Assembly (NCBI GenBank): GCA_051362555.1
Contig: CM120646.1
Span: forward strand, 6,324,001 to 6,388,000
Origin: Lingula anatina
Taxonomy: Eukaryota > Animalia > Brachiopoda
Reading direction: 5' to 3'
Length of the DNA stretch: 64,000 bases
Part shown: piece by piece, positions 21,629 to 42,450 of the stretch
Position numbering within the stretch: position 1 is the first letter of the stretch
Layout of the letters: every line of letters starts with the position of its first letter
The notes under the pieces: generated by a model
What the model saw: the letters and a program-made list of their open reading frames with translations, nothing else
What the model was told of the DNA's origin: nothing
The model's database searches: none
Made by a program: the position numbers and the translations under genes

Positions 21629-22759
21629 GGGGGGGGTCAGCGCAACGTTTCTTGGTTCTGACGCTGGCAAAACGAAACCTGAAGCACACTAATAGACATA
21701 CATAGGCTACATATGTAAGGTGATTTTGTGGTTGGCCTAGCTATATAGTTAGCGGCTACATGTAGTTCTTTCATGTAAATTAGACAAACAATTTAAAATG
21801 ATCTCTACTCACCCCAAATTAAAGGACAGCTAAGGCTGCACTCTATTAGCAAAAAGAACCACTTGTCCAGTATGTCTCCAAAGATGTTCTCACATTAATC
21901 GCTGTATAAGGCCTATAGTTACATAAACACAATTAATATCATAAACTTCCACGCATGCTTGGGCAATAAACATTGATCTGTTAAGACCTGTAGCATGAAA
22001 CCATTCCATTCAATGGCTGTGAATATAAACATTGCAAGCATAGCAACAGCGGCCGTTACTTCTACCTAGCATCGATCGAGGGCAGGACTAAACCCTGACC
22101 AAAACAAAAGGCGCTGAGAAAACACGAGACAATGCACCGTACAATCTATACATCTCATATAGTGCATGCTTTTATGTTTACGAAGGCAATCGCTATAAAA
22201 TTACAAAAACAAACCAATTAGTCTGCGTACCGTGCAAAAAGTATATGCCTCAAACACTACTGCATGGTAGCTAGTATATACAGAGCCGCACAGACTTACA
22301 TATGCGGGTAGACAGCATTTCTGGGTTACGTAATTTTAAAAGGTGTAGGTCTTAACCGTGATTTCTTCTCCGTCAAATCGAACTTTCATTGAAAAAAAAA
22401 AGCAAATTTCGCCTCCTCACGAATCATATTGCTCGACCAGTTCCTGAACTTCGATTTGACGTTTCATGCCATTTCTAATTTAATAATTTAGATCTAAATG
22501 ATTGGCAAATCACTTAGACTGCCCTGTCTTCCTGTGCATTTCCGTAGGAAATAACGAAATTAGGCACTTAATTTATTGAAGGGGTTCTCTTTTTTCTAAG
22601 GTCTGAAATGGGAAAGTTTTTGCAAAACATAGAAAATATGCTTGGACACTTTCAAATACAGATAGTATACCTCTATCTTACCGAACAAATACTACTACTT
22701 TATCTTGAATAAACATTGCTATATATATACTGTGCAAATACGAGGAAAGCAATCGTTAA

Positions 22760-23079
22760 AGGGATAATAACTCTTCGTTTCGGCCAAAAAATGAATTTTC
22801 CTGGAGTAAACAACAATTTTCCCATACTTACTAATGGTTAATGAATCCATTTTTACATTCAAAGTTAGTCCCTGGTTTTTTTCTAAAAAGTTTGGTTTTT
22901 TGTTTTTAACAGAGTATAGCCTTCAATGGAGGTCACGTGGTCTAAAGACAAGCTCGGATATCAGAATAAGAGCTATAACTGCCGTTTTTGTGGTAAAAAA
23001 GAATGTATTATATTTCTGTGAGTTCTTCACAATGTTTTTATTGCGAAATATAGATCTCATACGAAGAGTTATTATCCCT
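22760..23079. mobile_element. Kolobok-like non-autonomous DNA transposon
   Basis: TTAA TSD at both ends and TIR AGGGATAATAACTCTTCG...CGAAGAGTTATTATCCCT. A partial copy lies at ~23788-24020 and a fragment at ~41380-41480. Confidence 0.8.
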
Positions 23080-23467
23080 TTAAGTACACGTTCATTGTAG
23101 ATCATAGTAGGCTACACCTCATGGTTTCCTTTCAAACTGAGTAATACTAAAACCATTGCTTTACATAATTAAGATAAGATTTTGCGATAGCCATCTATAC
23201 TTGTAGGTAAGAAAATGAATGATACAAATAATTATTGTAATAATAATACTAAATTGTTGAGCAGTAAATAAATGAGCTTGGCAATTCATTGGAAAACAAA
23301 GTCAGCGTACGCCCCATTGCCCCTTGACCACTCAGTATGTGTATATTGTGTTTACCCAGCACGTATGATAATATTATTGATTGGTCAATATGTTTGGACT
23401 GGAGAGCACATGCACAGTCGTTCACGTATATAAACTATTTGTTTCCAAGTCATCAATCGAATGAGGC

Positions 23468-23633
23468 CAGGCCCGTAGCCAGCAAAGTCAAAAGGGGGTT
23501 CTTTTTCTGAAAAAGTGGACCTTTTATAATGAAACCTTTGTGTACCTAGATCAAATTGTACCCAGAATGGACCTTTTTCTGACAAAAAAGACGGTTCTTT
23601 CGGACCCCCCGAACCCCCCTGGCTACGGGCCTG
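23468..23633. mobile_element. hAT-like MITE (family A) with a 5-bp TSD
   Basis: TIR CAGGCCCGTAGCCAG...CTGGCTACGGGCCTG with TSD GAGGC. An inverted copy is at 61246-61409 and a decayed copy at ~4850-4985. Confidence 0.85.
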
Positions 23634-24551
23634 GAGGCCGATAGGCTCGTACTCCCTTTGCGAAAGCCACCCTCCCCACACGAAGCTCTATTATGCTTGA
23701 GTTCTCAATATCCCTATCCACTTTTCAGATCAAAATGCTTATTTACTGGTGTTTTTGTAGCAGGTCTTCTTAATGATCGTCAATTAAAGGAATAACAACT
23801 GTTCATTTTGGCAAAAAAAAAAAAAAAAAAAATTAATTTTCCTCGGGTAAATGGCAATTTTCCCATACTTACCAATGGTTAATGAATCCATTTCTACATT
23901 CAAAGTTAGTCCATGTTTTTTTCTCTAAATTTTTTTTTCTTCTTTCTTTTTTTTTTTTTTTTGTAATAATCTCTTCAAAGGTTATTGCAGAGTACTGGCA
24001 ACCATGGAGGTCACGTGGTCGGATGGCAAGCACAGATTTCAGATAAATTGCTATAACTACCTGCGATGCTACCTGCAAAGACGTCACGTGCTAGCGTAAG
24101 CTATAGCTAGCGAAAAGAATTGATTGTCCAAGTTGAATTTCTCTTTCATCAGTCTTGAATAATAAAAAAGTTACCAGATTTATCTGATCTCACACAAAAG
24201 ACATTAACTTTCTAAATTATAAATCTTCGTTACTGTCGCGCGCAGCACCATTTTAAGCCTCGGTCACAACCGGACGCACGAATTTTAGGATCGTACGTCC
24301 CCTACGAATTTTGGGTGCAGCGGAGGCCGTGGAGTTCGTAGGGGTAGAGGAAAGTCCGCCTTGCAAGTCGCAAGGGCTTCATGAGTTGTCCTTTCAAGCA
24401 GTGACGCTAATTGCAAGGAGCGATGGCCGTGGAAATTGCACTCACTCCTTGAGTTTGTGTTGCTTCCTGCGTATGTGGCACACACTCACCACTACTCAAC
24501 ACGCAAAGGGCACTTGCTTCTTCATGGCTTGCGCCGTGCGTTTTGCACAAC

Positions 24552-24882
24552 CAGGCCTACCCAACTACCAGACTCGGCACCTAAGGATCCTGAATTAACC
24601 GGTATATCGGACCACACTACCCGTTTTCAAGGTGTGTGTCAGATCGCATTTCGGAGTATCATACCCCAGAGCAAATTTTGTAGCACGACTGCGGGCTCAT
24701 CCACGCTCGGCTGAACAACCTTAAACTGTACTCTTACTTTAGAGTACTCTATTTTATTGTCCCTATGGGGATATATGGGGACTTTGCGACATTCGGTTTG
24801 AATGTTTTAACCACTTTTGATAGGTGTTTTTTTTTTCCACTGTATTAGATTAATGTGGCAGTCTGGTAGTTGGGTAGGCCTG
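24552..24882. mobile_element. hAT-like MITE with a 5-bp TSD, nested in an older inverted-repeat element (~24290-25040)
   Basis: TIR CAGGCCTACCCAACTACCAGACT...AGTCTGGTAGTTGGGTAGGCCTG with TSD ACAAC. Confidence 0.85.
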
Positions 24883-25050
24883 ACAACGCACGTCTCACTT
24901 GCTAACTCCATGCAAGGGGACCAAGTTACGCGTGCGGCCTTGCTGTTCGCAGGCTATTCGTACAATCGTTTGGACATGTACAACATCCTCCGTAGGTGCT
25001 TACGGGCTGTCTGCGAACTCGAATTTTCGTAAGAAGGACCTCAGTGGGAC

Positions 25051-25302
25051 CAGGCCTACCCAATTACCAGACTCGGCACATAAGGACCTTGAATTAACCG
25101 TTATATCGGTCCACACTACCCGTTTTCAAGGTGTGTGTCAGATCGCATTTCGGAGTATCAGTCAGAACACGGACAGGATGAGCCCGCGGTCGCCCTACAA
25201 AATTTGTTCTGGGGTATGATATTCCAAAATGCGATCTGACACACACCTTGAAAACGGGTAGTGTGGTCCGATATAACGGTTAATTCAAGATCCTTATGTG
25301 CC
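25051..25302. mobile_element. Rearranged fold-back derivative of the 24552 element
   Basis: 25051-25160 repeats the left arm of the 24552 element. 25161-25302 is an inverted copy of that arm, giving an ~85-bp stem. Confidence 0.75.
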
Positions 25303-25831
25303 TTATGTACCCCAATCAGTTGATGATCAACTTCAAGTACATAATCCCCACCCGGCCAACCCAATAAATTTGTGAATGCTTACCAACGCCCCCCCCCTCC
25401 CTCTTCCCCTCAAACTTTGCCTCCTTTTTCGCGCCTGTCTACATATATGATTAGTCTTGCTGTCTCTGAAAATGGTACACATGGGGGTCCATGAAAAATA
25501 TCTTTCAACTTTGCGTACAGTTACAAGCAATGATTTATAAATTTCTGTTCAATTTGCAGTCGTAAACTCAAAATATCGAGGATTTTTGATAACTTTGACT
25601 TGGGCAGATCTAGGATATAAATACGCATACCCTCGCATTTTTGAGCTTACATCTACACATTGAAAAGAAATATATAAATCATTGATATATGCGATGCAAT
25701 GCGACGGGGAATCAATCAACAGCATAATGCTTTTAATTCTTTAGGGAGATTAACTTAAGAATAAAAAATATCATGAATACTTCACGTAAGTTCAATCATA
25801 GCCTGGTTTTAGTTACACACATTATGTGATG

Positions 25832-25929
25832 CAGTGGCGGATTTAGAGGGGGGCAGGGCAGGGGGGGGGGAGGTGCGGCTTCGCATCTGCGGACCCCCTC
25901 CCCTTCAAATAATCCTGGATAAGCCCCTG
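25832..25929. mobile_element. Short hAT-like MITE upstream of UGT copy 1
   Basis: CAGTGGCGGATTTAG...CTGGATAAGCCCCTG with TSD TGATG. The empty site (cattacgtgatgctatattcagata) is present in the paralogous regions at ~34583 and ~37584. Confidence 0.85.
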
Positions 25930-26133
25930 TGATGCTATATTCAGATATAACCACTGACAAGGTTGAAGGTGACCAAATGAGCACACTTGAAGACTGACTA
26001 ACTTAGTTGATCAATGCTTATTTGTACTAACATATAGCGTAAGTAACTAAAAGTGGGGCAGAGGGAGTATGATATCGTTCCATGCTTGAAACTTCTCAAC
26101 TTATCAGTTCACTAGAGCTCAGTGTGGTAATAA

Positions 26134-26352
26134 AACCCCCTTTACACTGGACGGCGTCCTTTTTGGGTCCTTTGTGCGACCCTGAAACTGGCGTCGCTGA
26201 GGTTGAAGAAAGAAGGCACAAGCATCGCTGTTGTTGCAGAAAAAATGCTCAATGACCGGCCAGTTGTTGGCACATATATATATATTTTTTCACTCTCAAA
26301 CGGGGCCGTACTACGGGACGCAGAAAGGACGCCGCCCAGTGTAAAGGGGGCT
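26134..26352. mobile_element. PIF/Harbinger-like MITE
   Basis: TIR CCCCCTTTACACTGGACGGCGTCCTT...AAGGACGCCGCCCAGTGTAAAGGGGG. It is absent upstream of UGT copies 2-4. Confidence 0.75.
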
Positions 26353-26398
26353 TGATTGGAGATAAGATGCCTGCAAGTTGCCAATGGCTCTACTGATC

Positions 26399-26608
26399 GG
26401 CCATCGGTGCATTCAGAGGCAGTTGATCTGTGGACTAACTAGTCCGCGGATCAAATATGGCGCCATCCACTTGAAAAAGTGCCGAGATTTTATTACTCTT
26501 CCCCGGCAGGATCGGCGCGCTTTGGCCTCAGGTATCAATTGTTAAGTGCGCCCCATATTTGATCCGAGCACCTGTTAGTCCGTGGAACAACAGGTTGTGA
26601 ATATGGTC
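26399..26608. mobile_element. Family D palindromic MITE ~130 bp upstream of UGT copy 1
   Basis: ggatcaaatatggcgc...gcgccccatatttgatcc arms. It interrupts the tgatcggc..tatca-gtaactgacg sequence that is contiguous at ~34911 and ~37876. Confidence 0.7.
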
Positions 26609-26738
26609 TATCAAGTAACTGACGAGGGGCAAAATACAGGACAGTCTGGGTCATAGACCAACCTTATTTTTCTTGCTGGCTCTTGTCAACACGTTATTCT
26701 TCTGTCTGCTCGGTTATTTAAAGTTGTCTGTATCATAA

Positions 26739-28346
26739 ATGAACGAGATGGCAAGTAAAACTGGTATGTCACTGGCTGTATTGTACGTTCTTTTGTTGTG
26801 CTCTTCAACCTCTGACGGTGCAAGAATTCTGTCGCTGGTTTACCCTGGAAGGAGCCAATTAGGCCTTACCGTGACAGTGCTGTCAGAGCTGAAAGGTCGA
26901 GGGCACGACGTTTGGGCGGTGTTTGCGGACACGTTCGAAATATCGCAATCGCTGCTGCAAGAAAGTGAAATTAATCTGCTGACTTTTAGATCAAAGGAGA
27001 AGATGTTTCTGGACGATCCAGAGTTACAGAGGGACATTTACATGGCGGCCGTTGAAAAACCAGAACTACGCAGAAGCCTGTTCCATTTGGCGTCCACTAT
27101 TCAAAAAGCTTCTAGGATATTCGAAAGTTATTTGGAAGAGATGTTTGTGGACAAGGAACTGGACAGAAAGGTCAGGGAGTTGAACTTTGACCTCATGATT
27201 GTTTACGGTTATTGGTTTTTTGCAAAGGCCTACCTCTTCCCTCACCGGTATGCGGTCCCTTACGTGTCCATAGTCCTAGATATGCAGCAGCTTGCTGGTG
27301 TTCCAATGCTGCCTTCATTTGTCCCTAGTCTAGCGATAACTGCCAAGTGCTCCGACAACATGAGTCTTTCTCAGCGAATGCTCAATATCGTTCCTTACGT
27401 TTTACTGAGGCATTCCTTACAACCTATTACGCCGGAACTTTCCCAGAAGCATGCCCCGGGACGCCCTTACATGTCTACGCCAGAGCTGATGGCAGAATCA
27501 GAGTTGTGGATAGTGGACGGAGGCCAGCCCGCCATTGACCACGTCAAACCGTCACTGCCCAACGTCAAGTACCTGGGAGGTCTTATGACGCGACCCGCAA
27601 AGCCACTGCCGAAAGACTTGGAAACTTTTCTAAAAAGGCATGACCACGGCGTGGTTCTTGTATCGTTCGGCTCCCTGGTCAAATACATGCCGGACAGAGT
27701 AGTTCAGGAACTTTTCGAAGCCTTCAAGAACGTGCCTCATGGTGTTATATGGAAGTATAATGGACAACCACTAAAGAATGTCCCGGATCATGTTAAGATT
27801 ATGTCTTGGATGCCACAGAATGATATTTTGGGGCATCCTAACACTAAGCTCTTTATAACACACGCTGGAAACAACGGGCAGATGGAGGCACTATACCACG
27901 GTGTGCCCATGATAAGCATACCTTTGTTCGGTGACCAAGATTACAACGCGGCAAGGGCGGAACAAAAAGGCATTGCAATAACAATGGACCCGGCATTCTT
28001 AAAATCCGAGGATCTTATTTCTGCCATTAATATGATGATGCAAAATGAGACCTATGCCAAGAATATGCGTAGGGCGTCCGCCATTTTCCGCGATCAACCT
28101 GGCACCCCCGTGGAACTGGCAGGTTTTTGGATTGACCACGTGATCAAATATGGCGGTTCCTATATGAAGTCCCATGCAAGATTGCTTCCCTGGTACCAGT
28201 TCTATATGCTTGATGTTATGTTGGTGTTTATAGCAATTATGTTTATGATTTTTTTGTTCTGTGCAGTTTGTTGTTCTTTTGTGTGCAAAAAATTACGTAG
28301 TCATTCAACTTCCGCTGGGAAACAAAATACTAAAAAGACCGAATAG
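26739..28346 (+). CDS. UDP-glycosyltransferase (UGT family, GT1), copy 1, single coding exon
   Basis: Signal peptide, UGT signature WMPQNDILGHPNTKLFITHAGNNGQMEALYHGVPMISIPLFGDQ, C-terminal TM helix and KKTE tail. The start homologous to the paralogs is the ATG at 26748, which has the better Kozak context. Confidence 0.95.
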   Translation: MNEMASKTGMSLAVLYVLLLCSSTSDGARILSLVYPGRSQLGLTVTVLSELKGRGHDVWAVFADTFEISQSLLQESEINLLTFRSKEKMFLDDPELQRDIYMAAVEKPELRRSLFHLASTIQKASRIFESYLEEMFVDKELDRKVRELNFDLMIVYGYWFFAKAYLFPHRYAVPYVSIVLDMQQLAGVPMLPSFVPSLAITAKCSDNMSLSQRMLNIVPYVLLRHSLQPITPELSQKHAPGRPYMSTPELMAESELWIVDGGQPAIDHVKPSLPNVKYLGGLMTRPAKPLPKDLETFLKRHDHGVVLVSFGSLVKYMPDRVVQELFEAFKNVPHGVIWKYNGQPLKNVPDHVKIMSWMPQNDILGHPNTKLFITHAGNNGQMEALYHGVPMISIPLFGDQDYNAARAEQKGIAITMDPAFLKSEDLISAINMMMQNETYAKNMRRASAIFRDQPGTPVELAGFWIDHVIKYGGSYMKSHARLLPWYQFYMLDVMLVFIAIMFMIFLFCAVCCSFVCKKLRSHSTSAGKQNTKKTE

Positions 28347-28596
28347 AGCATAATTTTACTTTGTAACGAAATATATTACCTCTGCATATATTTCAGTATT
28401 TTTTCATTGCGAATGTGTCTAAACAGATAGACTATGTCTTATTTAAACTTCTCAGATAGATTCCCAACCTTTTTCGCCGTTTCTATCTACACTGTAACTT
28501 CAAATTCAATCGTATTTCATGGACGACGTGGCAAGAAAGCATTGTTTAGACTCTCAAAAAAGTTAATTGTTGTTAATTCACATATCAAGAAAGCTA

Positions 28597-28602
28597 AATA
28601 AA
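28597..28602 (+). terminator. Polyadenylation signal AATAAA of UGT copy 1
   Basis: Positionally conserved ~250 bp after each UGT stop (also 32534, 36899 and 39863). Confidence 0.55.
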
Positions 28603-30448
28603 GTGGATATGGAATACCGGTTTGGCATTATCTCTCAGTTTTCATAATTCGGAAGCTGAATATCTGTGATTGTCAAATACACGAAAACGACAAACAGCAT
28701 CCTCTTTTGTGGATGGTGATAGAATGCTAGTATCGACCCTTTATAAATCAATTTCTCAAAATTAGTGATTGACGCTTGATGCCTACCAATGGTGTGCATG
28801 TTCCATTTTTCCCTTGTGACGTCACAATTTACTTTTGACTTCCTCGCATTCGTCGGTGTGGCAACCGCCGGAAATGAATAATTAAATGATTTATTGAGTA
28901 TGTAAAATTTTTATCCTGTCCATGATCTCAATTCTGTCTGCAGCTACATGGGTATTAAAAAATTACTATAGAAAATTGTTCAAATTCTCAAAATGGCATG
29001 TACTTTCAGTAATAAAATCAGACTAGTAAATTGTCATTAGAGCTGTCTTTCAGCTCCCTTTCTCAAAGACAAATACAATGACCACACCTTGTGGGGAACC
29101 CCCTTAGACCATCCCGGGCCCCACATTACATTAAATAACACTTATTAATATTAAAATCCCAGGGTTTGGGCACAATGGGCTGTTCTTGGGATAACGCTAT
29201 CTGCAATACTGCTACAGAGATTCCCAGGTTCCTTGTCTTAAACTCTTCACACGGAAAAGAATGAAACTACATGTTGTAACTTCAACAGAATAATATTTCT
29301 TTGCTACACTAACAGTTACATGGTACAAGCCTCTCTCTCCTCCTCTCTCTCTTCTATCCAGTCTCAATTCTACATCTTCCTCTCCTCCCTTCTCTCCTCT
29401 ATCCAGTCATTTCTACATCTCACTCCTCCCTAGGTTTAAGTTCCCAGATTTTTTATACTAAACTTTATCTACTAAATTGTCAATCACAAAACTTAAAAAC
29501 TGATTGGTTACTTCATACGCAAGTCCACCCCTTCCTGGTGGTCACTGTTAATAAATCCCTGTAATCAAGTTCTAACAAATTACCGGCTTCGAAACAAAGG
29601 ACATTAAAATTTGAACTGCAAGGTGTGAAGTACATGTTTTATCTAAAGCTACTTATACAACATGGCTTCTCATGTATGAATTTTATGAAACAATGGCTTC
29701 CTCTGATTGAGTTAATACTACACCAAGTATGCAAGTTTTAAAGGTACTAATTACACTTTTTTTTATACTGTGGTTCCTGACAACCTGTGAAGGTCATATC
29801 TGTTTTAGTTCTATTTGCTACAATGACACCAACTGATAAGATCACTTTCTTCCAATTAAACCACCTCAAGGGGCTCTATGATTGTTTGAAGATCGAGGTA
29901 AGTTCTGTTCAATCGCTGTCAGTGGACAGATTCATCCGATAACAAAGACATTGCAACTTCTTACCTGAAAAACAATCAGAACTGCAGCTCATATAATTAC
30001 AGTGTAAGAGAGGTGCATTTCAATCGCTTATAAAATCGGCATCAATACTAGAAAAGGTCCTTGATGGCCATTTCCTGGCACTATATACCTATGCTGATAT
30101 AATTAAACAGTTGTCAAGTTTAATTATCAACCGGTGTGAGAGATACAGACGATCAAAGTTGATCATTTTAACATTGGGAGTAATGGAGCTTACGGATTGG
30201 TTTACCCTAGTCCGGGCATGGCGGCCATCTTGTGACGTCATGCCGACTGTAAGAATAGGGGTGAAGGTGTCGAAACTAGCACACTTAGAGACTGCATGAA
30301 CAAAGGAAGTCGACCCATATGCGTCCTTGTACTGTACAAACATAGAGCGCACATAACTAAAAGTGGAGTCAGAGGGAGCATGATATATTTGTCATCTTTC
30401 TGTTCTCGGGATATCTCGACTTATCATGGAAGTTACCAAGGGCACTTT

Positions 30449-30536
30449 TGGGCCCCGTAACTCGATGGCATCGCGCATTGCGACCGATCGCAGGCGTCTC
30501 CATTCCATAACTAGCCCATACTCGCGTCATATAATA
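30449..30536 (+). promoter_or_regulatory. ~70-bp MITE followed by a TATA-like TATAATA upstream of UGT copy 2
   Basis: The same arrangement occurs at 34810-34897 and 37775-37862. The 70-bp element also occurs alone, inverted, at 62891-62961. Confidence 0.45.
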
Positions 30537-30675
30537 CATTTAGGGGAACTGACGGAAGCCAAAATATAGGACAGTCTGGGTCATAGATATAGGTTCTCTT
30601 ACAGACTGTTGTCAACACGTTATATTCTTCTGTCGGCTCGGTTATTTATACTTGTCTATGTCATAAAGGAACGAG

Positions 30676-32274
30676 ATGACGAGTAAAACTGGTATGTCAC
30701 TGGCTGTATTGTACGTTCTTTTGTTGTGCTCTTCAACCTCTGACGGTGCAAGAATTCTGTCGCTGGTTTACCCTGGAAAGAGCCAGTTAGGCCTAACCGT
30801 GACAGTGCTGTCAGAGCTGAAAAGTCGAGGGCACGACGTTTGGGCAGTGTTTGCGGACACGTTCGAAATATCGGCCTCGATGTTGCGAGAAAGCGGAATT
30901 AATCTGCTGACTTTTAGATCTAAGGAGAAAATGTTTCTGGACGATCCGGAGGTACAGAGAGATATTTTAATGGCGGCCGTTGAAAACCCAGAACTACGCA
31001 CAAGCCTGTTTCATATAACGTCCGCTATTCAAAAATTGTCTAGGATATTCGAAAGTTATTTAGAAGAGATGTTTGTGGACAAGGAACTGGACAGAAAGGT
31101 CAGTGAGTTAAACTTTGACCTCATGATTGTAAGCGGTTATTGGTTTTTTGCAAAAGCCTATCTCTTCCCTCACCGGTATGCCGTTCCTTACGTGTCAATA
31201 GTCCTAGATATGCAGCAGCTTGCTGGTGTTCCAATGCTGCCTTCATTTGTCCCTAGTCTAGCGATAACTGCCAAGTGCTCCGACAACATGAGTCTTTCTC
31301 AACGAATTCTAAACGTTCTTCCTTACCTTTTCCTGAAGCATTCCTTACAACCTATTACGCCGGAACTTTCCCAGAAGCATGCCCCGGGACGCCCTTACAT
31401 GTCTACGCCAGAGCTGATGGCAGAATCAGAGTTGTGGATAGTGAACGGAGGCCAGCCCGCCATTGACCACGTCAAACCGTCACTGCCCAACGTCAAGTAC
31501 CTGGGAGGTCTCATGACGCGACCCGCAAAGCCACTGCCTAAAGACTTGGAAACTTTTCTTAAAAAGCATGGCCACGGCGTGGCTCTTGTATCGTTCGGCT
31601 CCGTGATCAAATACATGCCGGACAGAGTAGTTCAGGAACTTCTCGAAGCCTTCAAGAACGTGCCTTATGGCGTTATATGGAAGTATAATGGGCCGCCGTT
31701 AAAGAATGTCCCGGATCATGTTAAGATTGTGTCTTGGATGCCACAGAATGATATTTTGGGTCATCCTAACACTAAGCTCTTTATAACACACGCTGGAAAC
31801 AACGGGCAGATGGAGGCACTATACCACGGTGTGCCCATGATAAGCATACCTTTGTTCGGTGACCAAGATTACAACGCGGCAAGGGCGGAACAAAAAGGCA
31901 TCGCAATAACAATGGACGCGGCATTCTTAAAATCCGAGGATCTTATTTCTGCTATTAATATGATGATGGAAAATGAGACCTATGCCAAGAATATGCGCAG
32001 GGCGTCCGCCATTTTTCGCGATCAACCCGGCACCCCAGTGGAACTGGCAGGTTTCTGGATTGACCACGTGATCAAATATGGCGGTTCCTATATGAAGTCC
32101 CATGCAAGACTGCTTCCCTGGTACCAGTTCTATATGCTTGATGTTATGTTGGTTTTTTTAGCAATGATTTTATTAATTTGTTTGTTCTGTGGAGTTTGTT
32201 GTTCGTTTGTTTGCAAAAAATTACGTGGCCAGTCAACTTCAGCTGGGAAACAAAAGACCCAAAAGACCGAATAG
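30676..32274 (+). CDS. UDP-glycosyltransferase copy 2, 532 aa
   Basis: Intact ORF with the UGT signature, TM helix and lysine-rich tail; close paralog of copy 1. Confidence 0.95.
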   Translation: MTSKTGMSLAVLYVLLLCSSTSDGARILSLVYPGKSQLGLTVTVLSELKSRGHDVWAVFADTFEISASMLRESGINLLTFRSKEKMFLDDPEVQRDILMAAVENPELRTSLFHITSAIQKLSRIFESYLEEMFVDKELDRKVSELNFDLMIVSGYWFFAKAYLFPHRYAVPYVSIVLDMQQLAGVPMLPSFVPSLAITAKCSDNMSLSQRILNVLPYLFLKHSLQPITPELSQKHAPGRPYMSTPELMAESELWIVNGGQPAIDHVKPSLPNVKYLGGLMTRPAKPLPKDLETFLKKHGHGVALVSFGSVIKYMPDRVVQELLEAFKNVPYGVIWKYNGPPLKNVPDHVKIVSWMPQNDILGHPNTKLFITHAGNNGQMEALYHGVPMISIPLFGDQDYNAARAEQKGIAITMDAAFLKSEDLISAINMMMENETYAKNMRRASAIFRDQPGTPVELAGFWIDHVIKYGGSYMKSHARLLPWYQFYMLDVMLVFLAMILLICLFCGVCCSFVCKKLRGQSTSAGKQKTQKTE

Positions 32275-35057
32275 AGCATAATTTTTACTTTGTAACAAAA
32301 TTCAGTATATTACCTCTGCGTATATTTCAGTATTTTTTTCATTGCGAATGTGTCTAAAGAGATAGACTCTGTTTTATTTAAACTCTTCAGATAGATTCCC
32401 AATCTTTTTCGCCGTTTCTATTTACACTGTAACTTCAATTTCCATCGTTTTTCATGGACGACGTGGCAAGAAAGCATTGTTTAGACTCTCAAAAAAGTAA
32501 CTTGTTGTTAATTCATACATATCAAGAAAGCTAAATAAAATGGATGTGGACAACCAGTTTGGACCATGATATTATCTCCCAGTTTTCATAATTCGGAAGC
32601 CGAATGGCTGTTTTGATCTTATCGGGTTACATTGCTTGAACAGTAAATATATTTATTGTCAAAGACACGAAAACGACAAACAGTATCCTCTTTCGTGGAT
32701 GAGGATAGAATGGTAGTATTGTCCCTTTATAAATTTATTTATTAAAATTCGTGATGACGCTTGGTGCCTACCAATACTGTTCATGACGCATTTTTCCCTT
32801 GTGACGTCACAATTCACTTTTATATGCAGTATTGATCATCATTATAGTCTGACCATTTTGAGTGATACTGAAATTGATATAGACTATCTTTCAGATCCAC
32901 AAAACTCGCAAACGACACAATCTGCACGAGCAATGTGATATGAGTCCATCGCCTTGGTAACTAGACAGAATTTGATTGACTTTTTGCAATAAAACTTTTA
33001 ATACTCTCTCTCTCTCTTTCTCTCTCCAAAAACCAAAATTAAAAATTTGAGGTTAATGCAGAAGATTATTATAATCCAAAATTTGTTTTATTTTTCAGGA
33101 GAAAAAACATTGTTTGTAGACAAATGTCCGAAATTTATGAAACAGAATCGGACGTACCTACCTTAAGCTTGATATTGACGAGATTAACTTTGTGACTGTG
33201 ACTTTGATGAGCCACGTGCAATATTTTGCGGTCTATTAATTTCTTAGATAGAAATATTTGGTTCGCTGGACTGCACCAGTCAAGAACTCACTTCGTCTCT
33301 ACTCGTTGCAAGTCCGCAGTAGGATTTCACTGACTGTTTTTTTTTATTCCATTCAGTTTATTCTTTATGATACCATAAAACCAGGCAAAAGTTATGTAAA
33401 TTATCGGACCACTTGAACCTTCATAGATGGTTACATGTAATAATATTTTCTTCTGTAGAGATTGCACGCTTAAAAAAAGAAATGATCGATCTACTTTAAA
33501 TATGGGAATTAACGACGTTTATCTCAACAAAAGTCCGTTTCCCGCCAAAATGAAAAGCTGTTTTCTATTTAAGCAACATTGATCAACCAAACCAAATAGT
33601 ACGACAAAAAACTGACTATTACATAGGGTTGTAAAGTGAAATGAAACGCTCATCACGTACGTTAACCGGTCAATTTCAGGAGTTTACACAAGTACTCATC
33701 AGAAAATTGGAAATGTCCAATTTCTCTTCTCTCAACGCGTTGTTTGCCGTTGTACTGCACTAAAGTCTAGCACAGTGCTTCATATGACACTGTACTACGC
33801 CATGAATACGCTTCACTATTCTGGTACGTATATCTAATTATTATTAAAATAAAAATAATTATTGAATAATTTAAAAAAAACTCATGGGTTCTTCCTGCCT
33901 TTCTCTTTAATTGCATCTGTATGTTATTGGGTATTGTGTTTGTGTGGAAAAGCCCCCTGTTGTTGTTGCGGTTGTTGTAGCCCTACGATTTGTCTGAACA
34001 TTTCTTTTCCGGAATCTTCGTGCAATACTTTTGTCCCCCATTTGTATATACCAATATCTTATGTAACTAACAATGGATAAGTTTAACGATAGTGACCAGC
34101 ATTCAGTGTGGTGAATGTGTTAGCTGTGCCCTCACAGCTCACCAAATGCTGATCTCCTACGGTACCCCTTATTCAACCGGTCGAGATTCGACGCGTGGTG
34201 AGTCGTGTGAGAGGCGGAGAGACCATTTCAGGATTAAGCGGTCTTTCTTTCATGTAGGTCCGCCATTTTTAGATCGCGACCTAGCTAGCACTCGGCTCTT
34301 CTCGATCTGAATGGTGCCTCAGTGATCGAAAACCCTCGCAATTTTGAGTTAACGTCTATGCATTGAAAAGGAAAAAAAAATATTGATATGTGCGATAGTC
34401 CGACGGGGACCCAAGCGACAGCATAACAGTTTTAGTTCTTTGGGGAGTTTTCACTTTAGAATAAAACAAAAAAAATATCATCAATACTTCACCTACCAAA
34501 CATTTCATGCTTGTGGACGTTTGTGGCCGTTTGTGGTAGTTAATTAGATCTAACTTCATCATAGCCATGTTTCAGTTAGAGACATTACGTGATGCTATAT
34601 TCAGATACAACACTGATAGGGGTGAAGGTGGTGAAACTAGCACACTTAGAGACTGCATGAACAAAGGAAGATGACCCGTATGCCTCCTTGTACTGTACCA
34701 ACAAATAGCGTACGTAACTAAAAGTGGAGTCAGAGGGAGTATGATATCTTTGTCATCTTTCCGTTCTCGGGATTTCTCGACTTATCATGGAAGTTACCAA
34801 GGGCACTTCTGGGCCCCGTAACTCGATAGCATCACGCATTGCGACCATTCGCAGGCGTCTCCATTCCTTAAATCGCCCATACTCGCCCCATATAATACAT
34901 TTAGGGGGCCTGATCGGCTATATCACGTAACTGACGGTAGCCAAAATATAGGACAGCCTGGGTCATAGATCTAGGTTCTCTTGCAGACTGTTGTCAACAC
35001 GTTATATTCTTCTGTCGGCTCGGTTATTTATAGTTGTCTATGTCATAAAGGAACGAG

Positions 35058-36656
35058 ATGGCGAGCAAAGCTGTTTTGTCACTGGCTGTATTGTACGTTC
35101 TTTTGTTGCGTTCTTCAACCTCTGACGGTGGAAGGATTTTGTCGCTGGTTTACCCTGGTAAGAGCCTGTTAAGCCTTACCGTGACAGTGCTGACAGAACT
35201 GAAAAGTCGAGGGCACGACGTTTGGGCGGTGTATGCGGACACGTTCGAAATATCGGCCTCGATGTTGCGAGAAAGCGGTATTAATCTGCTGACTTTTACA
35301 TCTAAGGAGAAAATGTTTCTGGACGATCCGGAGGTACAGAGAGATATTTTAATGGCGGCCGTTGAAAACCCAGAACTACGCACAAGCCTTTTTCATTTAA
35401 CGTCCACTATTCAAAAATTTACTAGTATATTCGAAAGTTATTTGGAAGAGATGTTTGTGGACAAGGAACTGGACAGAAAGGTCAGGGAGTTGAAATTTGA
35501 CCTCATGATTGTTTGCGGTTATTGGTTTTTTGCAAAAGCCTACCTCTTCCCTCACCGGTATGCGGTTCCTTACGTGTCCATAGTCCTAGATATGCAGCAG
35601 CTTGCTGGTGTACCAATGCTTCCTTCATTTGTCCCTAGTCTAGCGATAACTGCCAAGTACTCCGACAAAATGAGTCTTCCTCAGCGAATGCTCAACATCG
35701 TTCCTTACGTCTTACTGAAGCATTCCATACAACCTATTTCGCCGGAACTTTCCAAGAAGCATGCCCCGGGGCGCCCTTACATGTCTACGCCAGAACTGAT
35801 GGCAGAATCAGAGTTGTGGATAGTGGACGGAGGCCAGCCCGCCATTGACCACGTCAAACCGTCACTGCCCAACGTCAAGTACCTGGGAGGTCTTGTGACG
35901 CGACCCGCAAAGCCACTGCCGAAAGACTTGGAGACTTTTCTCAAAAAACATGACCACGGCGTGGTTCTTGTGTCGTTCGGCTCCCTGGTCAAATACATGC
36001 CGGACAGAGTAGTTCAGGAACTTTTCGAAGCCTTCAAGAACGTGCCTTATGGTGTTATATGGAAGTATAATGGGCAGCCGCTAAATAATGTCCCGGGTCA
36101 TGTCAAGATTATGTCTTGGATGCCACAGAATGATATTTTGGGGCATCCTAACACTAAGCTCTTTATAACACACGCTGGAAACAACGGGCAGATGGAGGCA
36201 CTATACCACGGTGTGCCCATGATAAGCATACCTTTGTTCGGTGACCAAGATTACAACGCGGCAAGGGCGGAACAAAAAGGCATCGCAATAACAATGGACG
36301 CGGCATTCTTAAAATCCGAGAATCTTATTTCAGCCATTAATATGATGATGCAAAATGAGACCTACGCCAAGAATATGCGTAGGGCGTCCGCCATTTTCCG
36401 CGATCAACCTGGCACCCCCGTGGAACTGGCAGGTTTCTGGATTGACCACGTAATCAATTATGGCGGTTCCTATATGAAGTCCCATGCAAGACTACTTCCC
36501 TGGTACCAGTTCTATATGCTTGATGTTATGTTGGTGTTTTTAGCAATTATTTTATTGATTTGTTTGTTCTTTGGAGTTTGTTGTTCCTTTGTGTGCAAAA
36601 AATTACGTAGTCAGTCAACTTCCGCTGGGAAACAAAAGACCAAAAAGACCGAATAG
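35058..36656 (+). CDS. UDP-glycosyltransferase copy 3, 532 aa
   Basis: Intact ORF with the UGT signature, TM helix and KKTE tail. Confidence 0.95.
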   Translation: MASKAVLSLAVLYVLLLRSSTSDGGRILSLVYPGKSLLSLTVTVLTELKSRGHDVWAVYADTFEISASMLRESGINLLTFTSKEKMFLDDPEVQRDILMAAVENPELRTSLFHLTSTIQKFTSIFESYLEEMFVDKELDRKVRELKFDLMIVCGYWFFAKAYLFPHRYAVPYVSIVLDMQQLAGVPMLPSFVPSLAITAKYSDKMSLPQRMLNIVPYVLLKHSIQPISPELSKKHAPGRPYMSTPELMAESELWIVDGGQPAIDHVKPSLPNVKYLGGLVTRPAKPLPKDLETFLKKHDHGVVLVSFGSLVKYMPDRVVQELFEAFKNVPYGVIWKYNGQPLNNVPGHVKIMSWMPQNDILGHPNTKLFITHAGNNGQMEALYHGVPMISIPLFGDQDYNAARAEQKGIAITMDAAFLKSENLISAINMMMQNETYAKNMRRASAIFRDQPGTPVELAGFWIDHVINYGGSYMKSHARLLPWYQFYMLDVMLVFLAIILLICLFFGVCCSFVCKKLRSQSTSAGKQKTKKTE

Positions 36657-38022
36657 AGCATAATTTTTTACTTGTGACGAAATATATTACCTCTGCATAT
36701 ATTTCAGTTTTTTTTTCATGGCGAATGTGTCTAAAGAGATAGACTATGTTTTATTTACACTTCTCAGATAGATTCCCATTCTTTTTCGCCGTTTCTATGT
36801 ACACTGTAACTTCAAATTTCATGGACGATGTGGCAAGAAAGCGTTGATGAGACTCTCAATAAAGGTACTTGTTGTTAATTCATATATCAAGAAAGCTAAA
36901 TAAAATGGATGTGGAAAACCAGTTTGGTATTATCTCTCAGTTTTCATAATTCGTGCTGAAAGTCTGTTTTGATCTCATCGGTTAACGCTTGGTGCCTACC
37001 AATGGTGTTCATGACGCGTTTTCCCTTGTGACGTCACAATATACTTTTGTTGTATTCCTCGCAATCATCGGTGTGGCAACCGCCGGAAATGAATGTGATT
37101 GGTATGACAAGAGGCTATTGGTATTATTTTATAATTTGTTATGCTTGTGGATTACTGTAGTCTACGTACCCCTTATTCAACCGGTCGAGATTCGACGCGT
37201 GGTGAGTCGTGTGAGAGGCGGAGAGACCATTTCAGGATTAAGCGGTCTTTCTTTCATGTAGGTCCGCCATTTTTAGATCGCGACCTAGCTAGCACTCGGC
37301 TCTTCTCGATCTGAATGGTGCCTAAGTGATCGAAAACCCTCGCAATTTTGAGTTAACGTCTACGCATTGAAAAGGAAAAAACATTGATATGTGCGATAGT
37401 GCGACGAGGACCCAAGCGACAGCATAACAGTTTTAGTTCTTTCGGGAGTTTTCATTTTAGAATAAAACAAAAAAAATATCATCAATACTTCACATACCAA
37501 CCATTTCATGCTTGTGGACGTTTGTGGCCGTTTGTGGTAGTAAATTAGATCTAACTTCATCATAGCCATGTTTCAGTTAGAGACATTACGTGATGCTATA
37601 TTCAGATACAACACTGATAGGGGTGAAGGTGGCAAATGGTGCCTCCTTGTACATGTACTGTACTAACATATTGCGTACGTAACTGAAAGTGGAGTCAGAG
37701 GGGGCATGATATCTTTGTCATCTTTCCGTTCTCGGGATTTCTCGACTTATCATGGAAGTTACCAAGGGCACTTATGGGCCCCGTAACTCGATAGCATCGC
37801 GCATTGCGACCGATCGCAGGCGTCTCCGTTCCTTAAATCGCCCATACTCGCCCCATATAATACATTTGGGGGCCCTGATCGGCTATATTACGTAACTGAC
37901 GGAAGCCAAAATATAGCACAGCCTGGGTCATAAATCTTGGTTCTCTTGCAGACTGTTGGCAATTCGTTATATTCATCTGTCGGCCCGGTTATTTATAGTT
38001 GTCTATGTCATAAAGGAACGAG

Positions 38023-39621
38023 ATGGCGAGCAAAGCTGTTTTGTCACTGGCTGTATTGTACGTTCTTTTGTTGCGTTCTTCAACCTCTGACGGTGCAAGA
38101 ATTTTGTCGCTGGTTTACCCTGGGAAAAGCCTGTTAGGCCTTACCGTGACAGTGCTGACAGAACTGAAAAGTCGAGGGCACGAAGTTTGGGCGGTGTATG
38201 CGGACACGTTCGAAATATCGGCCTCGGTGTTGCGAGAAAGTGGTATTAATCTGCTGACTTTTAGATCTAAGGAGAAAATGTTTCTGGACGATCCGGAGGT
38301 ACAGAGAGATATTTTAATGGCGGCAGTTGAAAACCCAGAACTACGCACAAGCCTGTTTCAATTAACGTCCACTATTCAAAAACTTTCTAAGATATTCGAA
38401 AGTTATTTGGAAGAGATGTTTGTGGACAAAGAACTACACAGGAAGGTCATCGAGTTGAAATTTGACCTTATGATTGTTTACGGTTATTGGTTTTTTGCAA
38501 AAGCCTACCTCTTCCCTCACCGGTATGCGGTCCCCTACGTGTCCATAGTCCTAGATATGCAGCAGCTTGCTGGTGTACCAATGCTTCCTTCATTTGTCCC
38601 TAGTCTAGCGATAACTGCCAAGTGCTCCGACAACATGAGTCTTTCTCAGCGAATGCTCAATATCGTTCCTTACGTTTTACTGAGGCATTCCTTACAACCT
38701 ATTACGCCGGAACTTTCCAAGAAGCATGCCCCGGGGCGCTCGTACATGTCTACGCCAGAGCTGATGGCAGAATCAGAGTTGTGGATAGTGGACGGAGGCC
38801 AGCCCGCCATTGACCACGTCAAACCGTCACTGCCCAACGTCAAGTACCTGGGAGGTCTTATGACGCGACCCGCAAAACCACTGCCGAAAGACTTGGAAAC
38901 TTTTCTTAAAAAGCATGGCCACGGCGTAGTTCTTGTGTCGTTCGGCTCACTGATCAAATACATGCCGGACAGAGTAGTTCAGGAACTTTTCGAAGCCTTC
39001 AAGAACGTGCCTTATGGTGTTATATGGAAGTATAATGGGCAGCCGCTAAATAATGTCCCGGATCATGTTAAGATTATGTCTTGGATGCCACAGAATGATA
39101 TTTTGGGGCATCCTAACACTAAGCTCTTTATAACACACGCTGGAAACAACGGGCAGATGGAGGCACTATACCACGGTGTGCCCATGATAAGCATACCTTT
39201 GTTCGGTGACCAAGATTACAACGCGGCAAGGGCGGAACAAAAAGGCATTGCAATAACAATGGACGCGGCATTCTTAAAATCCGAGAATCTTATTTCTGCC
39301 ATTAATATGATGATGCAAAACGAGACCTATGCCAAGAACATGCGTAGAGCGTCCGCCATTTTTCGCGATCAACCCGGCACCCCCGTGGAACTGGCAGGTT
39401 TCTGGATTGACCACGTGATCAAACATGGCGGTTCCTATATGAAGTCCCATGCAAGACTGCTTCCCTGGTACCAGTTCTATATGCTTGACGTTATGTTGGT
39501 GTTTTTAGCAATTATTTTATTGATTTGTTTGTTCTTTGGAGTTTGTTGTTCCTTTGTGTGCAAAAAATTGCGTAGTCAGTCAACTTCCGCTGGGAAACAA
39601 AAGACCCAAAAGACCGAATAA
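38023..39621 (+). CDS. UDP-glycosyltransferase copy 4, 532 aa
   Basis: Intact ORF with the UGT signature, TM helix and lysine-rich tail. Confidence 0.95.
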   Translation: MASKAVLSLAVLYVLLLRSSTSDGARILSLVYPGKSLLGLTVTVLTELKSRGHEVWAVYADTFEISASVLRESGINLLTFRSKEKMFLDDPEVQRDILMAAVENPELRTSLFQLTSTIQKLSKIFESYLEEMFVDKELHRKVIELKFDLMIVYGYWFFAKAYLFPHRYAVPYVSIVLDMQQLAGVPMLPSFVPSLAITAKCSDNMSLSQRMLNIVPYVLLRHSLQPITPELSKKHAPGRSYMSTPELMAESELWIVDGGQPAIDHVKPSLPNVKYLGGLMTRPAKPLPKDLETFLKKHGHGVVLVSFGSLIKYMPDRVVQELFEAFKNVPYGVIWKYNGQPLNNVPDHVKIMSWMPQNDILGHPNTKLFITHAGNNGQMEALYHGVPMISIPLFGDQDYNAARAEQKGIAITMDAAFLKSENLISAINMMMQNETYAKNMRRASAIFRDQPGTPVELAGFWIDHVIKHGGSYMKSHARLLPWYQFYMLDVMLVFLAIILLICLFFGVCCSFVCKKLRSQSTSAGKQKTQKTE

Positions 39622-42450
39622 AGCATAATTTTTACTTTGTAACGAAATATAGTAGGCCTACCGCTGCATATATTTCAGAATTGCTTTCATTGTGTCTAAA
39701 CAGATAGACTATGTTTTATTTAAACTTCTGAGATAGATTCCCAATCTTTTTCGCCGTTTCTATCTACACTGTAACTTCACTTCAGTAAATTCCATCGTAT
39801 TTCATGGACGACTCCCAAATAAGTTACCTAATTTGTTGTTAATTCATATATCAAGGAAGCTCAATAAAACGGATGTGGCAAACCAGTTTGGTATTATGTT
39901 TCAGTTTTCATAATGCGGAAGCTGAATACATGTGCATCTGTTATTGTCAAAGATACGAAAACGACAAACAGCATCCTCTTTCGTGGATGAGGATAGAATG
40001 CTAGTATCGACCCTGTATAAATCAATTTCTTAAAATTAGTGATAACGCTTGGTGCCTACCAATGGTGTCCATGTCGCATTTTTCCCTTGTGACGTCACAA
40101 TTTACTTTTGACGTCTCCCTCGCCACAATCGTTGGTGTGGCAACCGCCGCAAATGAATGTGATTAGTGATGACAAGAGGCTGTTGGTATTATTTTATAAT
40201 TTGTTTTGCTTGTTGTGGATTACTTTACGTCGCTCTGAAGCAACGATATAACAGATTCAAGGTAGAAAGTAAATATTGGCCTCCCACGGTATGGAAAAAC
40301 ATGTTTACAAAATCTAAAGGCAAGTTTGCATAATAAATATCAATTTTAAATGAAAATTAAGTCTTAAAAGTTATTGACCATCAGGAACAAGCTTGTAGGA
40401 GAAGTTAGATACTGCCACAAATAGTATTTTTGTTCAATTTTGGACATTTAAAGAATACATCTTCTTCAAACATAAAAGATTCATGCCAGTACGGGGCCTA
40501 CACATGGACCATCGCTGTTAACGCAAATCCGTACAAGCATGTAATGTATAAATATAGACTACATCAAAACTCTCATTTTATAGGCACGTAATATATATGC
40601 AGAATTGAGCATCAGTATAAGTAATAATTTTGAATAATACTGAAATTTATATATTTTTCAGAGCCACAAAACTCGCAAACGACGCAATCTGCACGAGCAA
40701 TTTAATACGAGTCCATCGTCTGGTAACTAGCCAAAATTTGATTGACTTTTTGCGATAAAACTTTTAATACTCTCTCTCTCTTTTTGTTTCTCCAAAAACC
40801 AAAATTCAGAATTTGAGGCGAATGCAGATGATTATAATAATCCAAAATTTGTTTTACTTTTCAGTGATCAGGACGGGAGAAAAAAACATTGTTTGCAGAC
40901 AAATGGTCGAAATTTCGGTATTATGAAACAGAATCGGACCGTACCTACCTTAATATTGACGAGATTAACTTTGTGACTGTGACTTTGATGAGCCACGTGC
41001 AATATTTTGCGGTCTATTAATGGCTTAGATAGAAATATTTGGTTCGCTTGACTGAATCAATCAAGAACTCACTTCGTCGCTACTCGTTGCAAGCCCGCAG
41101 TAGAAGTTCACTGACTGTTTTTTTTATTCCATTCAGTTTATTCTTTATGATACCATAAAACCAGGCAAAAATTATGTAAATCAAACAATGAACGTTTCCC
41201 TGAAATAGGAAATGAAAAGTAGGGACAAGAGCAACTGTCACAATAGTTCTGAATTGTTGTTACCCTGTATATACAAGTACCAGAAAAATTCTTACCACAG
41301 TTTTTCAACGTTTCCTTTTTCACGGCTGTTTCCAGTATTAGTGAAGAGACAACAAAATTGTATATGATAATCAAGATTCTACGATATATTCATTGTAAGC
41401 AACATATAAATATGATACATACCATTTTATCACCAAAACGGCGGCTATCGCAATAAGTCTGAAAACTGTGCTTGTCATCGGACCACTTGAACCTTCATAG
41501 ATGGTTACATGTACGCTTCGTAATATTTTCTGAAGAGTTTTTTTGCACGCTTTGAAAAAAAAAAAACAACAAAAAACCATCGACCTACTATACACGTGGG
41601 AATTAACGGATTGATAACCACTGGAAAGTATGGGAAGATCGCCGTTTATCTCAACAAAAATCCGTTTCCCGCCAAAATGAAAAGCTGTTATCCCATTTAA
41701 GCCACATTGTTCAACCAAACCAAATAATACGACAAGAACTGACTATTGCATAGCGTTGTAAAGTGAAATGAATCACTCATCACTGTACATTAACCGGTCA
41801 ATTTTAGGAGTTATACAAGAATTTTAAAAGAGCATGATAAAACAACTTACAACTAATAGTACGACATCACTTTAAAATAATGCAAAAATAAGATTGTACC
41901 CAAAAGGGTTTGCCTAAAGGGCCAATGACCCATGAATGGACACCCCCAAAGATATACAAATAATAAAAACTCTACTTTAGTACTAAAAAGAACAATGTTT
42001 ACATCTAAAAACGACAATGTGTACATCTGCAGCGACCCACCCAAGTGCAAACGTTCTCGGGGTCAAAACGCTCCACCAGAAGAGTACCATAGTGCTCTCT
42101 GACGGATCGTCTAAACATTGATCTGACAGCCCCTGAACGTGTGCAAATTGGAAGGGCGTTCCAGATGGGAACAACGCGATTGAAAAAGACCGGCAAAACG
42201 TTTCGGTTCTACAGAAGTTGGTACTGTGGATGATAAAATGATCTCCCCTTGTGTTTCTGTGTAGAAAAGCTCCCTGTTGTTGTCGTGGTTGTTGTTGGCC
42301 TACGCTTTGTCACAACATTCGTTTTCCTGAATCTTTGTGCAATGCTTTTGTCACCCCATTTGATAAATAACTTATACAATATTATAAGCTAACAATGGAT
42401 CAGTTCAGCGATACTTATCATCATTCAGTGTGTTAGCTGTGCACCACAGA
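39622..42450 (+). repeat. Paralog of the spacer that follows UGT copy 2, with no downstream UGT
   Basis: Blocks ~40660-41180, ~41478-41818 and ~42255-42445 match ~32895-33400, ~33403-33690 and ~33940-34135. Confidence 0.8.
41830..42245 (-). mobile_element. 5'-truncated CR1/L2-type LINE 3' end
   Basis: The minus-strand translation CRTETF (frameshift) FFNRVVPIWNALP...FRRSVREHY resembles the C-terminus of CR1/L2 ORF2. It is absent from the paralogous spacer. Boundaries are approximate. Confidence 0.65.

What the first reader, a model, noticed from the sequence alone, without database searches (positions are those of the whole stretch)
26739..39621. All four UGTs appear to lack both residues of the catalytic His-Asp dyad, and these sites keep diversifying
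Seen: after the first strand (ARILSLVYPG-x-S), where UGTs have S-H, the codon is CAA Gln (26856), CAG Gln (30784), CTG Leu (35166) and CTG Leu (38131). In FDLMIV-x, where UGTs have Asp, it is TAC Tyr (27204), AGC Ser (31132), TGC Cys (35514) and TAC Tyr (38479). These are single-step paths from CAY and GAC. The ORFs and the UDP-sugar-binding signature are intact and identical. Established: His (UGT2B7 H35) and Asp (D151) deprotonate O-acceptors, and human UGT1A4 (Pro) and UGT2B10 (Leu) lack the His and specialise in N-glucuronidation of amines. Inference: this is an amplified clade convergently specialised for N- or S-glycosylation (e.g. dietary alkaloids or own toxins), or acting as non-catalytic binders. 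Three different residues at one active-site position among near-identical paralogs hints at positive selection.
Basis: partly seen in the sequence, partly recalled or inferred. Interest (0 to 1): 0.75.

Follow-up and report, generated by a model that had tools for sequence, protein, structure and literature searches.

The report
Brachiopod sugar-transferases without the catalytic pair
Four neighbouring detoxification-type sugar-transferase genes of the lamp shell Lingula lack both amino acids that such enzymes normally use to activate their target, as do all their close Lingula relatives seen here, and they likely still work, on targets that need no activation; the loss is old and recurs in other invertebrates.

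Summary
Four intact, intronless, tandem UGT genes (91-95% identical; best hits are Lingula anatina RefSeq proteins) carry Gln/Gln/Leu/Leu at the catalytic His site and Tyr/Ser/Cys/Tyr at the Asp site. Alignments and an AlphaFold model place both sites where the dyad belongs. The donor site is intact, the genes are under purifying selection (omega 0.32), and copy 2 is transcribed with Ser153 kept.

The interpretation needs correcting. The loss is not recent: 18 of 18 sequences of a Lingula clade (six sub-lineages, 35-56% identical) lack both residues, with Gln probably ancestral. Dual loss also recurs in about eight other invertebrate lineages. Positive selection at the dyad sites is not shown: two of three site tests are non-significant, the His site is not a hit, and fewer three-state sites are seen (5) than near-neutral drift predicts (9).

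New here: a Lys/Arg two residues before the His site is invariant across the clade. Most likely these are base-free glycosyltransferases for amine, thiol or already ionised acid acceptors. No activity was tested.

The parts
26739..28346 (+). UGT copy 1 (U1), intronless ORF; shared ATG at 26748; Arg35, Gln37, Tyr153
30676..32274 (+). UGT copy 2 (U2); Lys35, Gln37, Ser153; transcribed on the + strand in 3 poly(A) runs
35058..36656 (+). UGT copy 3 (U3); Lys35, Leu37, Cys153; nearly the same as RefSeq XP_013413406.1 (P0123)
38023..39621 (+). UGT copy 4 (U4); Lys35, Leu37, Tyr153
30784..30786 (+). His site in U2 (CAG Gln37); others 26856, 35166, 38131
31132..31134 (+). Asp site in U2 (AGC Ser153); others 27204, 35514, 38479
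30778..30780 (+). Lys35 of U2, two residues before the His site; basic in 18 of 18 clade members; Arg in U1 and in the expressed allele of U2
31732..31917 (+). UDP-sugar-binding region of U2 (residues 353-414), identical in protein in all four copies
26609..40227 (+). Tandem duplication units of about 2.1-2.8 kb, 89-92% identical, holding each gene with its flanks

Best explanation
These four tandem Lingula UGT paralogs lack the His-Asp dyad but keep an intact UDP-sugar site, and they are likely active membrane-bound glycosyltransferases that work without a general base, holding the donor next to an acceptor that needs no deprotonation (an amine, a thiolate, or an already ionised acid such as a carboxylate or acidic phenol). 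Shown: dyad absent, donor site, N-terminal and C-terminal hydrophobic helices and GT-B model intact, purifying selection, expression of copy 2, and loss shared by an old Lingula clade. Inferred: His became Gln once in the clade's ancestor; the Asp site then lost its partner and now drifts as an ordinary pocket residue; the invariant Lys/Arg35 would supply a positive charge that binds an anionic acceptor or the UDP phosphate.
For: Purifying selection: omega 0.32 overall (p=4e-13 against 1), 0.39 in the acceptor domain, 0.20 in the donor domain. Donor-contact residues are as conserved in sequences without His or Arg at the site (247 of 253) as in His-bearing ones (652 of 660). The two losses are coupled: an acid at the Asp site in 55 of 60 His-bearing but 1 of 23 non-His/non-Arg sequences (10 of the 23 are Lingula, so not independent). 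18 of 18 clade members lack both residues, over six sub-lineages 35-56% identical (clade support 0.999, 0.998). U2 is read end to end on the sense strand in runs X1-X3, and 0 of 15, 0 of 18 and 0 of 7 reads differ at 31132. Precedent, passages read: PtUGT1 His26Gln loses O- and keeps N- and S-transfer, and thiophenolate reacts without any catalytic residue (PMC8819650); UGT72B1 H19Q loses 300-fold in O- but 2-fold in N-activity (PMC8558338); natural Cys-Asp UGT76C enzymes prefer N-glycosylation (PMC12246196). Lys35 is 1 of only 5 clade-specific invariant residues in the acceptor domain and is basic in 24 of 124 His-bearing homologs.
Against: No activity, substrate or donor was measured. All precedents I read are single losses: UGT2B10 keeps Asp, UGT76C keeps Asp and its Asp-to-Ala mutant lost N-activity, UGT89C1 and UGT706F8 keep His. 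His-to-Leu in SfUGT33F28 gave no N-activity. His-less UGT1A4 and UGT76C2/3 still make some O-glycosides. Lys at -2 also occurs beside an intact His in fly UGTs (3 of the 46 sequences), so it need not compensate for anything. Only copy 2 shows clear stranded expression.
Confidence: 0.55

Rival explanations
1. Ordinary O-glycosyltransferases that use a relocated base: Asp178 (just after strand 172-176), His113, Glu40 in the sister lineages, or Lys35.
For: PaGT2 uses an extra His81, and some plant O-GTs rely on spontaneous deprotonation (PMC10641439). Asp178 is invariant in the four copies, and Glu sits one turn after the Gln in most sister paralogs.
Against: No His/Asp/Glu candidate is shared by the clade at these spots: Asp178 is limited to the window's sub-lineage, His113 is Gln in U4, position 40 is Leu in the window copies. 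Lys35 is exchanged for Arg in U1 and in the expressed U2 allele, which fits a charge better than a base. Acidic residues 72, 92 and 131 are clade-wide, but their position relative to the site was not measured.
Confidence: 0.2
2. Catalytically dead proteins kept as UDP-sugar or ligand binders, or as partners that modulate other UGTs in heterodimers.
For: Both canonical catalytic residues are gone; the Asp site varies freely; human UGTs modulate each other on co-expression (PMC5075577). Purifying selection does not prove catalysis.
Against: Donor-contact residues are kept across all six sub-lineages, and variation among the four copies is concentrated in the acceptor domain (42 of 251 against 17 of 212 sites, p=0.005), the usual pattern of UGT families with diversifying substrates. 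No His-bearing Lingula partner turned up among the Lingula-named proteins seen, although the search was not exhaustive.
Confidence: 0.15
3. One reading: a recent, convergent specialisation for amine N-glucuronidation, with positive selection acting on the two dyad positions.
For: M8a vs M8 p=0.015; site 153 ranks second (posterior 0.88) and needs three amino-acid-changing base changes; a neutral Tyr or Cys site shows three residues only 3-4% of the time. U3 and U4 have Leu, as UGT2B10 does.
Against: M1a/M2a p=0.105 and M7/M8 p=0.07; site 37 posterior 0.09; 11 of 32 informative sites conflict with the main tree, which suggests gene conversion; several top sites are multi-base codon changes; 5 three-state sites seen against 9.2 expected. 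The loss predates the four copies. A fixed positive charge at 35 would disfavour cationic amines (inference).
Confidence: 0.1

Closest known systems
Lingula anatina RefSeq 'UDP-glucuronosyltransferase 2C1-like / 1-2-like / 2B37-like' (XP_013413403.1, 405.1, 406.1, 413.1, 417.1)
   Same: Same gene cluster or its allele: 89-94% identity for the two representatives, five models on one 289,020-base scaffold.
   Different: Automatic names only; 4 of the 5 models lack the N-terminus with the His site. The window's exact proteins are not in the collection.
Human UGT2B10 (Leu) and UGT1A4 (Pro), N-glucuronidating UGTs
   Same: Same family and topology; His replaced, by Leu in U3/U4 as in UGT2B10 (the Pro of UGT1A4 is recalled).
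   Different: UGT2B10 keeps Asp150; here both residues are gone. Separate origin; donor sugar unknown.
Plant PtUGT1 His26Gln and UGT72B1 H19Q mutants; Arabidopsis UGT76C Cys-Asp enzymes
   Same: His-to-Gln is the substitution seen in U1, U2 and most of the clade; it removes O- and spares N-/S-transfer.
   Different: Soluble plant enzymes, single substitutions, Asp retained.
Other invertebrate UGTs lacking both residues (Lymnaea P0053, Physella P0067, Mytilus P0114 and unnamed records)
   Same: Dual loss with intact donor site.
   Different: Separate lineages in the tree, other residues, and Lys/Arg at -2 in only 3 of 22. I found no functional data on them.
Tetranychus UGT202A2, Bacillus YjiC (solved GT-B structures)
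   Same: Top structural matches, Z 33.3-33.7, rmsd 2.7-3.0 A over 349-405 residues (Foldseek).
   Different: Soluble, 18-20% identical; no residue-level superposition was available.

Membership tests
GT1 / animal membrane UGT (Pfam UDPGT) | UDPGT profile match over the whole protein | tested here: met
   308-316 bits, cut-off 19.5, 4 of 4 copies
GT1 / animal membrane UGT (Pfam UDPGT) | C-terminal UDP-sugar signature (W354, Q357, H372, G374, E380, D396, Q397) | tested here: met
   All present; aligns with human UGT2B7/2B10/2B15 donor domains
GT1 / animal membrane UGT (Pfam UDPGT) | GT-B fold, N-terminal signal helix, C-terminal membrane helix, basic tail | tested here: met
   Model pLDDT 91.8 with helices 4-18 and 488-523; Z up to 33.7 to GT-B structures; lysine-rich tail read from sequence; no signal-peptide predictor was run
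Canonical His-Asp O-glycosylating UGTs | His at the start of the first N-domain helix | tested here: not met
   Gln, Gln, Leu, Leu
Canonical His-Asp O-glycosylating UGTs | Asp/Glu at the end of the fourth N-domain strand | tested here: not met
   Tyr, Ser, Cys, Tyr
UGT2B10/UGT1A4-type N-glucuronosyltransferases | His replaced by a non-basic residue | tested here: met
UGT2B10/UGT1A4-type N-glucuronosyltransferases | Asp retained | tested here: not met
   UGT2B10 D150 conserved; absent here
UGT2B10/UGT1A4-type N-glucuronosyltransferases | Measured N-glucuronidation with UDP-glucuronic acid | not testable with these tools
   needs an enzyme assay
Pseudoenzyme | Decay of the donor-binding residues | tested here: not met
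   omega 0.20 in the donor domain, 0 amino-acid changes in 353-414
Pseudoenzyme | No catalytic turnover | not testable with these tools
   needs an enzyme assay

The most novel reading that the evidence does not exclude
Lingula has an old, expanded UGT clade, possibly most of its repertoire, that dropped the whole His-Asp dyad and instead uses an invariant Lys/Arg beside the old His site to bind pre-ionised acceptors (carboxylates, halogenated phenolates, thiolates): a natural, base-free, cation-anchored GT1 mechanism in an animal.
Probability: 0.2. Interest if true: 0.7.

Novelty: new variant of a known kind. Interest (0 to 1): 0.38.

Why it matters
GT1 catalysis without the dyad is known mainly from engineered single mutants and from a few natural enzymes that keep one of the two residues. 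An expressed, conserved natural clade lacking both gives ready-made proteins to test whether positioning alone is enough for transfer. It also shows that automatic 'glucuronosyltransferase' labels on invertebrate UGTs hide a sizeable non-canonical fraction: 10 of 90 representatives scored here, 3 of them from this clade, in a sample biased towards the query. My ten literature searches of the open library found no study of Lingula UGT function (2 papers, neither on it by title or abstract) and no characterised natural dual-loss enzyme; subscription journals were not covered.

Tried and rejected
No whole genome is held for this window, so the full Lingula UGT repertoire could not be counted. No RNA holder was listed by index; raw-read runs were laid instead. 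Misalignment as the cause of the 'loss' was rejected. A fifth copy or fragment in the window: tblastn finds only the four. Residue-level superposition on solved structures was not possible: PDB sequence searches aligned only the donor domain in the shown matches and the fold searches give ranges only; alignment A3 was made for this and not used. The N-terminal-only homolog search returned just 2 Lingula proteins. Of 20 representatives looked up by name, 16 have none. The primary papers on UGT2B7 His35/Asp151, on His/Pro swaps and on position 33 are not held; I saw the last two only as reference titles, so UGT2B7 numbering is recalled. Paper searches gave nothing; searches gave nothing of use beyond that title. 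Three look-ups in earlier findings returned nothing. No complex prediction was run. No parametric bootstrap or recombination-aware selection test was run; site models were my own implementation (F3x4, naive empirical Bayes, four sequences). No supplements were read; those of PMC12246196 and PMC7781194 hold the mutant data and could refine the precedents.
Full report
1. What is there. The window is animal DNA; the best protein hits are Lingula anatina RefSeq UGTs at 89-94% identity, five models on one scaffold. Four intronless ORFs lie in tandem on the + strand at 26739, 30676, 35058 and 38023, inside duplicated units of 2.1-2.8 kb; tblastn finds no further copy. They are 90.6-95.1% identical in protein and align without gaps. 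All match Pfam UDPGT. An AlphaFold model from a 108-row alignment has pLDDT 91.8 and matches GT-B structures at Z up to 33.7.

2. The observation. In a MAFFT alignment with the 120 listed homologs (of 220 found), the two columns hold His in 64 of 108 and Asp in 84 of 116 sequences that have a residue there, including mammalian, zebrafish and Xenopus UGTs; the mammalian protein has His36 and Asp153. A profile alignment to the zebrafish protein agrees. In the model Q37 lies at the start of the first helix and S153 at the end of the fourth strand, the canonical places by established GT1 anatomy. The dyad is really absent. Residues 353-414 are identical in all four copies and every donor-contact residue checked is present.

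3. The loss is old. Other Lingula UGTs, on other scaffolds and only 35-39% identical to U2, also lack both residues: Gln with His, Asn, Gln, Ser or Tyr, and Val with Gly. They form one clade with the window copies (FastTree support 0.999). Eighteen of 18 sequences (4 window copies and 14 RefSeq proteins, among them an isoform pair and the probable model of U3) in six sub-lineages lack both. Gln is the likely ancestral replacement (inference), and Leu in U3/U4 is one later step from CAG.

4. The loss is not rare. Of the best 150 representatives at 50% identity, 92 were 480-600 aa and 90 could be scored: 71 have His, 19 do not, and 10 lack both residues, 3 of them from the Lingula clade (one His-scored row, P0155, is misaligned). 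In a second sample (46 of 49 new hits kept by length, 42 scored) 2 lack both. In the tree, dual loss appears in about eight lineages outside Lingula, including Lymnaea, Physella and Mytilus proteins; deep nodes are weak, and I left out P0021 as a probable alignment shift. A further group has Arg with Asp kept (25 of 25). Loss of His and of Asp go together: acid at the Asp site in 55 of 60 His-bearing and 1 of 23 other sequences, as expected if the Asp only serves the His.

5. The genes are maintained. Omega is 0.32 overall, 0.39 in the acceptor domain and 0.20 in the donor domain, each well below 1. U2 is covered end to end by sense-strand poly(A) reads in X1, X2 and X3 (175-257 reads from about 6% of each run), and not in X4. 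No read differs at 31132 in those three runs, and no difference at codon 37 is among the 40 rows shown (87 weaker rows were not shown). Of 17 allelic differences listed in the coding sequence 11 are synonymous; one is Lys35Arg. U1, U3 and U4 have only thin unstranded cover in X7, or reads in the near-identical donor region, so their expression is not shown.

6. Positive selection is not shown. With four sequences, M1a/M2a gives p=0.105, M7/M8 p=0.07 and M8a/M8 p=0.015. The leading sites are 121, 153, 143 and 67; site 153 has posterior 0.88 and site 37 has 0.09. Against the weak signal: 11 of 32 informative sites conflict with the main split, several top codons differ by two or three bases at once, and the near-neutral model predicts 9.2 three-state sites where 5 are seen. 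For it: a neutral Tyr or Cys codon reaches three residues in only 3-4% of simulations, and by plain counting two chosen N-domain sites both vary with chance 0.03. Relaxed constraint on a pocket residue explains this; mild diversifying selection on the acceptor pocket is not excluded.

7. What replaced the dyad? Only five residues of the acceptor domain are invariant in the six sub-lineages yet rare in His-bearing homologs: Lys35, Phe80, Gln94, Gly184, Ile227. Lys35 is two residues before the His site and is basic in 18 of 18 clade members against 24 of 124 His-bearing homologs. The same position is aromatic in the mammalian UGT2B-like protein, and a paper title calls position 33 of UGT2B4/2B7 critical for substrate specificity (reference list of PMC10708323; paper not read, numbering recalled). 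Its exchange with Arg suggests that charge matters, not base chemistry. Caveat: fly UGTs have Lys there next to an intact His, and other dual-loss lineages mostly lack it (3 of 22). No His/Asp/Glu near the two sites in sequence is shared by the clade; Asp178 is a candidate base for the window's sub-lineage only.

8. Mechanism. Passages read: PtUGT1 His26Gln loses O- and keeps N- and S-glycosylation, and a thiophenolate needs no catalytic residue (PMC8819650). UGT72B1 H19Q behaves alike (PMC8558338). N- and S-transfer depend on positioning (PMC10641439). Natural Cys-Asp UGT76C enzymes prefer N but keep weak O-activity (PMC12246196). UGT2B10 lacks His but keeps D150 (PMC8781437). His-to-Leu in an insect UGT gave no N-activity (PMC7781194). 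I conclude that the proteins most likely transfer sugar by positioning alone to amines, thiolates or ionised acids (0.55). Donor and acceptor are unknown.

9. Verdict. A real, well-supported feature; a member of the GT1/UGT family by profile, fold and donor signature, but not of the His-Asp class nor strictly of the UGT2B10 class. It is a new variant of a known kind: single-residue losses are in print, dual loss is a recurring minority state among invertebrate UGTs, and I found no characterised natural example in my searches. Interest 0.38.

Noticed in passing
window 12388-13773 (-): Intronless 461-aa front-end fatty acid desaturase (cytochrome b5 domain with HPGG, Pfam FA_desaturase E 1e-32). 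Native or horizontally acquired origin not examined.
   Followed up: partly
window 29085-30219: Spliced minus-strand RNA between U1 and U2 (joints 29085-29783 and 29959-30189, CT..AC ends) in 4 of 4 runs for the first joint; the reads carry many differences, so they may come from a related repeat elsewhere.
   Followed up: no
window 30036-30675: Sense-strand reads extend several hundred bases upstream of the U2 ATG with no joint listed: a long unspliced 5' leader.
   Followed up: no
window 30560-32400, run X8: Unstranded reads with a T at the first base of codon 153 (11 of 11) and changes at 30943 and 31012-31013 seen in none of the four copies: a further paralog or divergent allele.
   Followed up: no
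P0027, P0050, P0062 and relatives: A large clade of unnamed invertebrate UGTs has Arg in place of the catalytic His with Asp kept in 25 of 25.
   Followed up: partly
P0320, P0324, P0326, P0331, P0332: Diabrotica UGTs keep His but have Thr or Ser at the Asp site.
   Followed up: no
window 22756-26602: Cluster of short inverted-repeat elements upstream of U1 (for example arms 22756-22778/23061-23083, 24552-24574/24860-24882, 26129-26170/26316-26357), MITE-like; 22756-23083 recurs at 44963-45307.
   Followed up: no
window 32821-34110 and 40594-42432: Downstream flank of U2 is repeated after U4, a sign of a larger duplication unit; no fifth UGT follows.
   Followed up: partly
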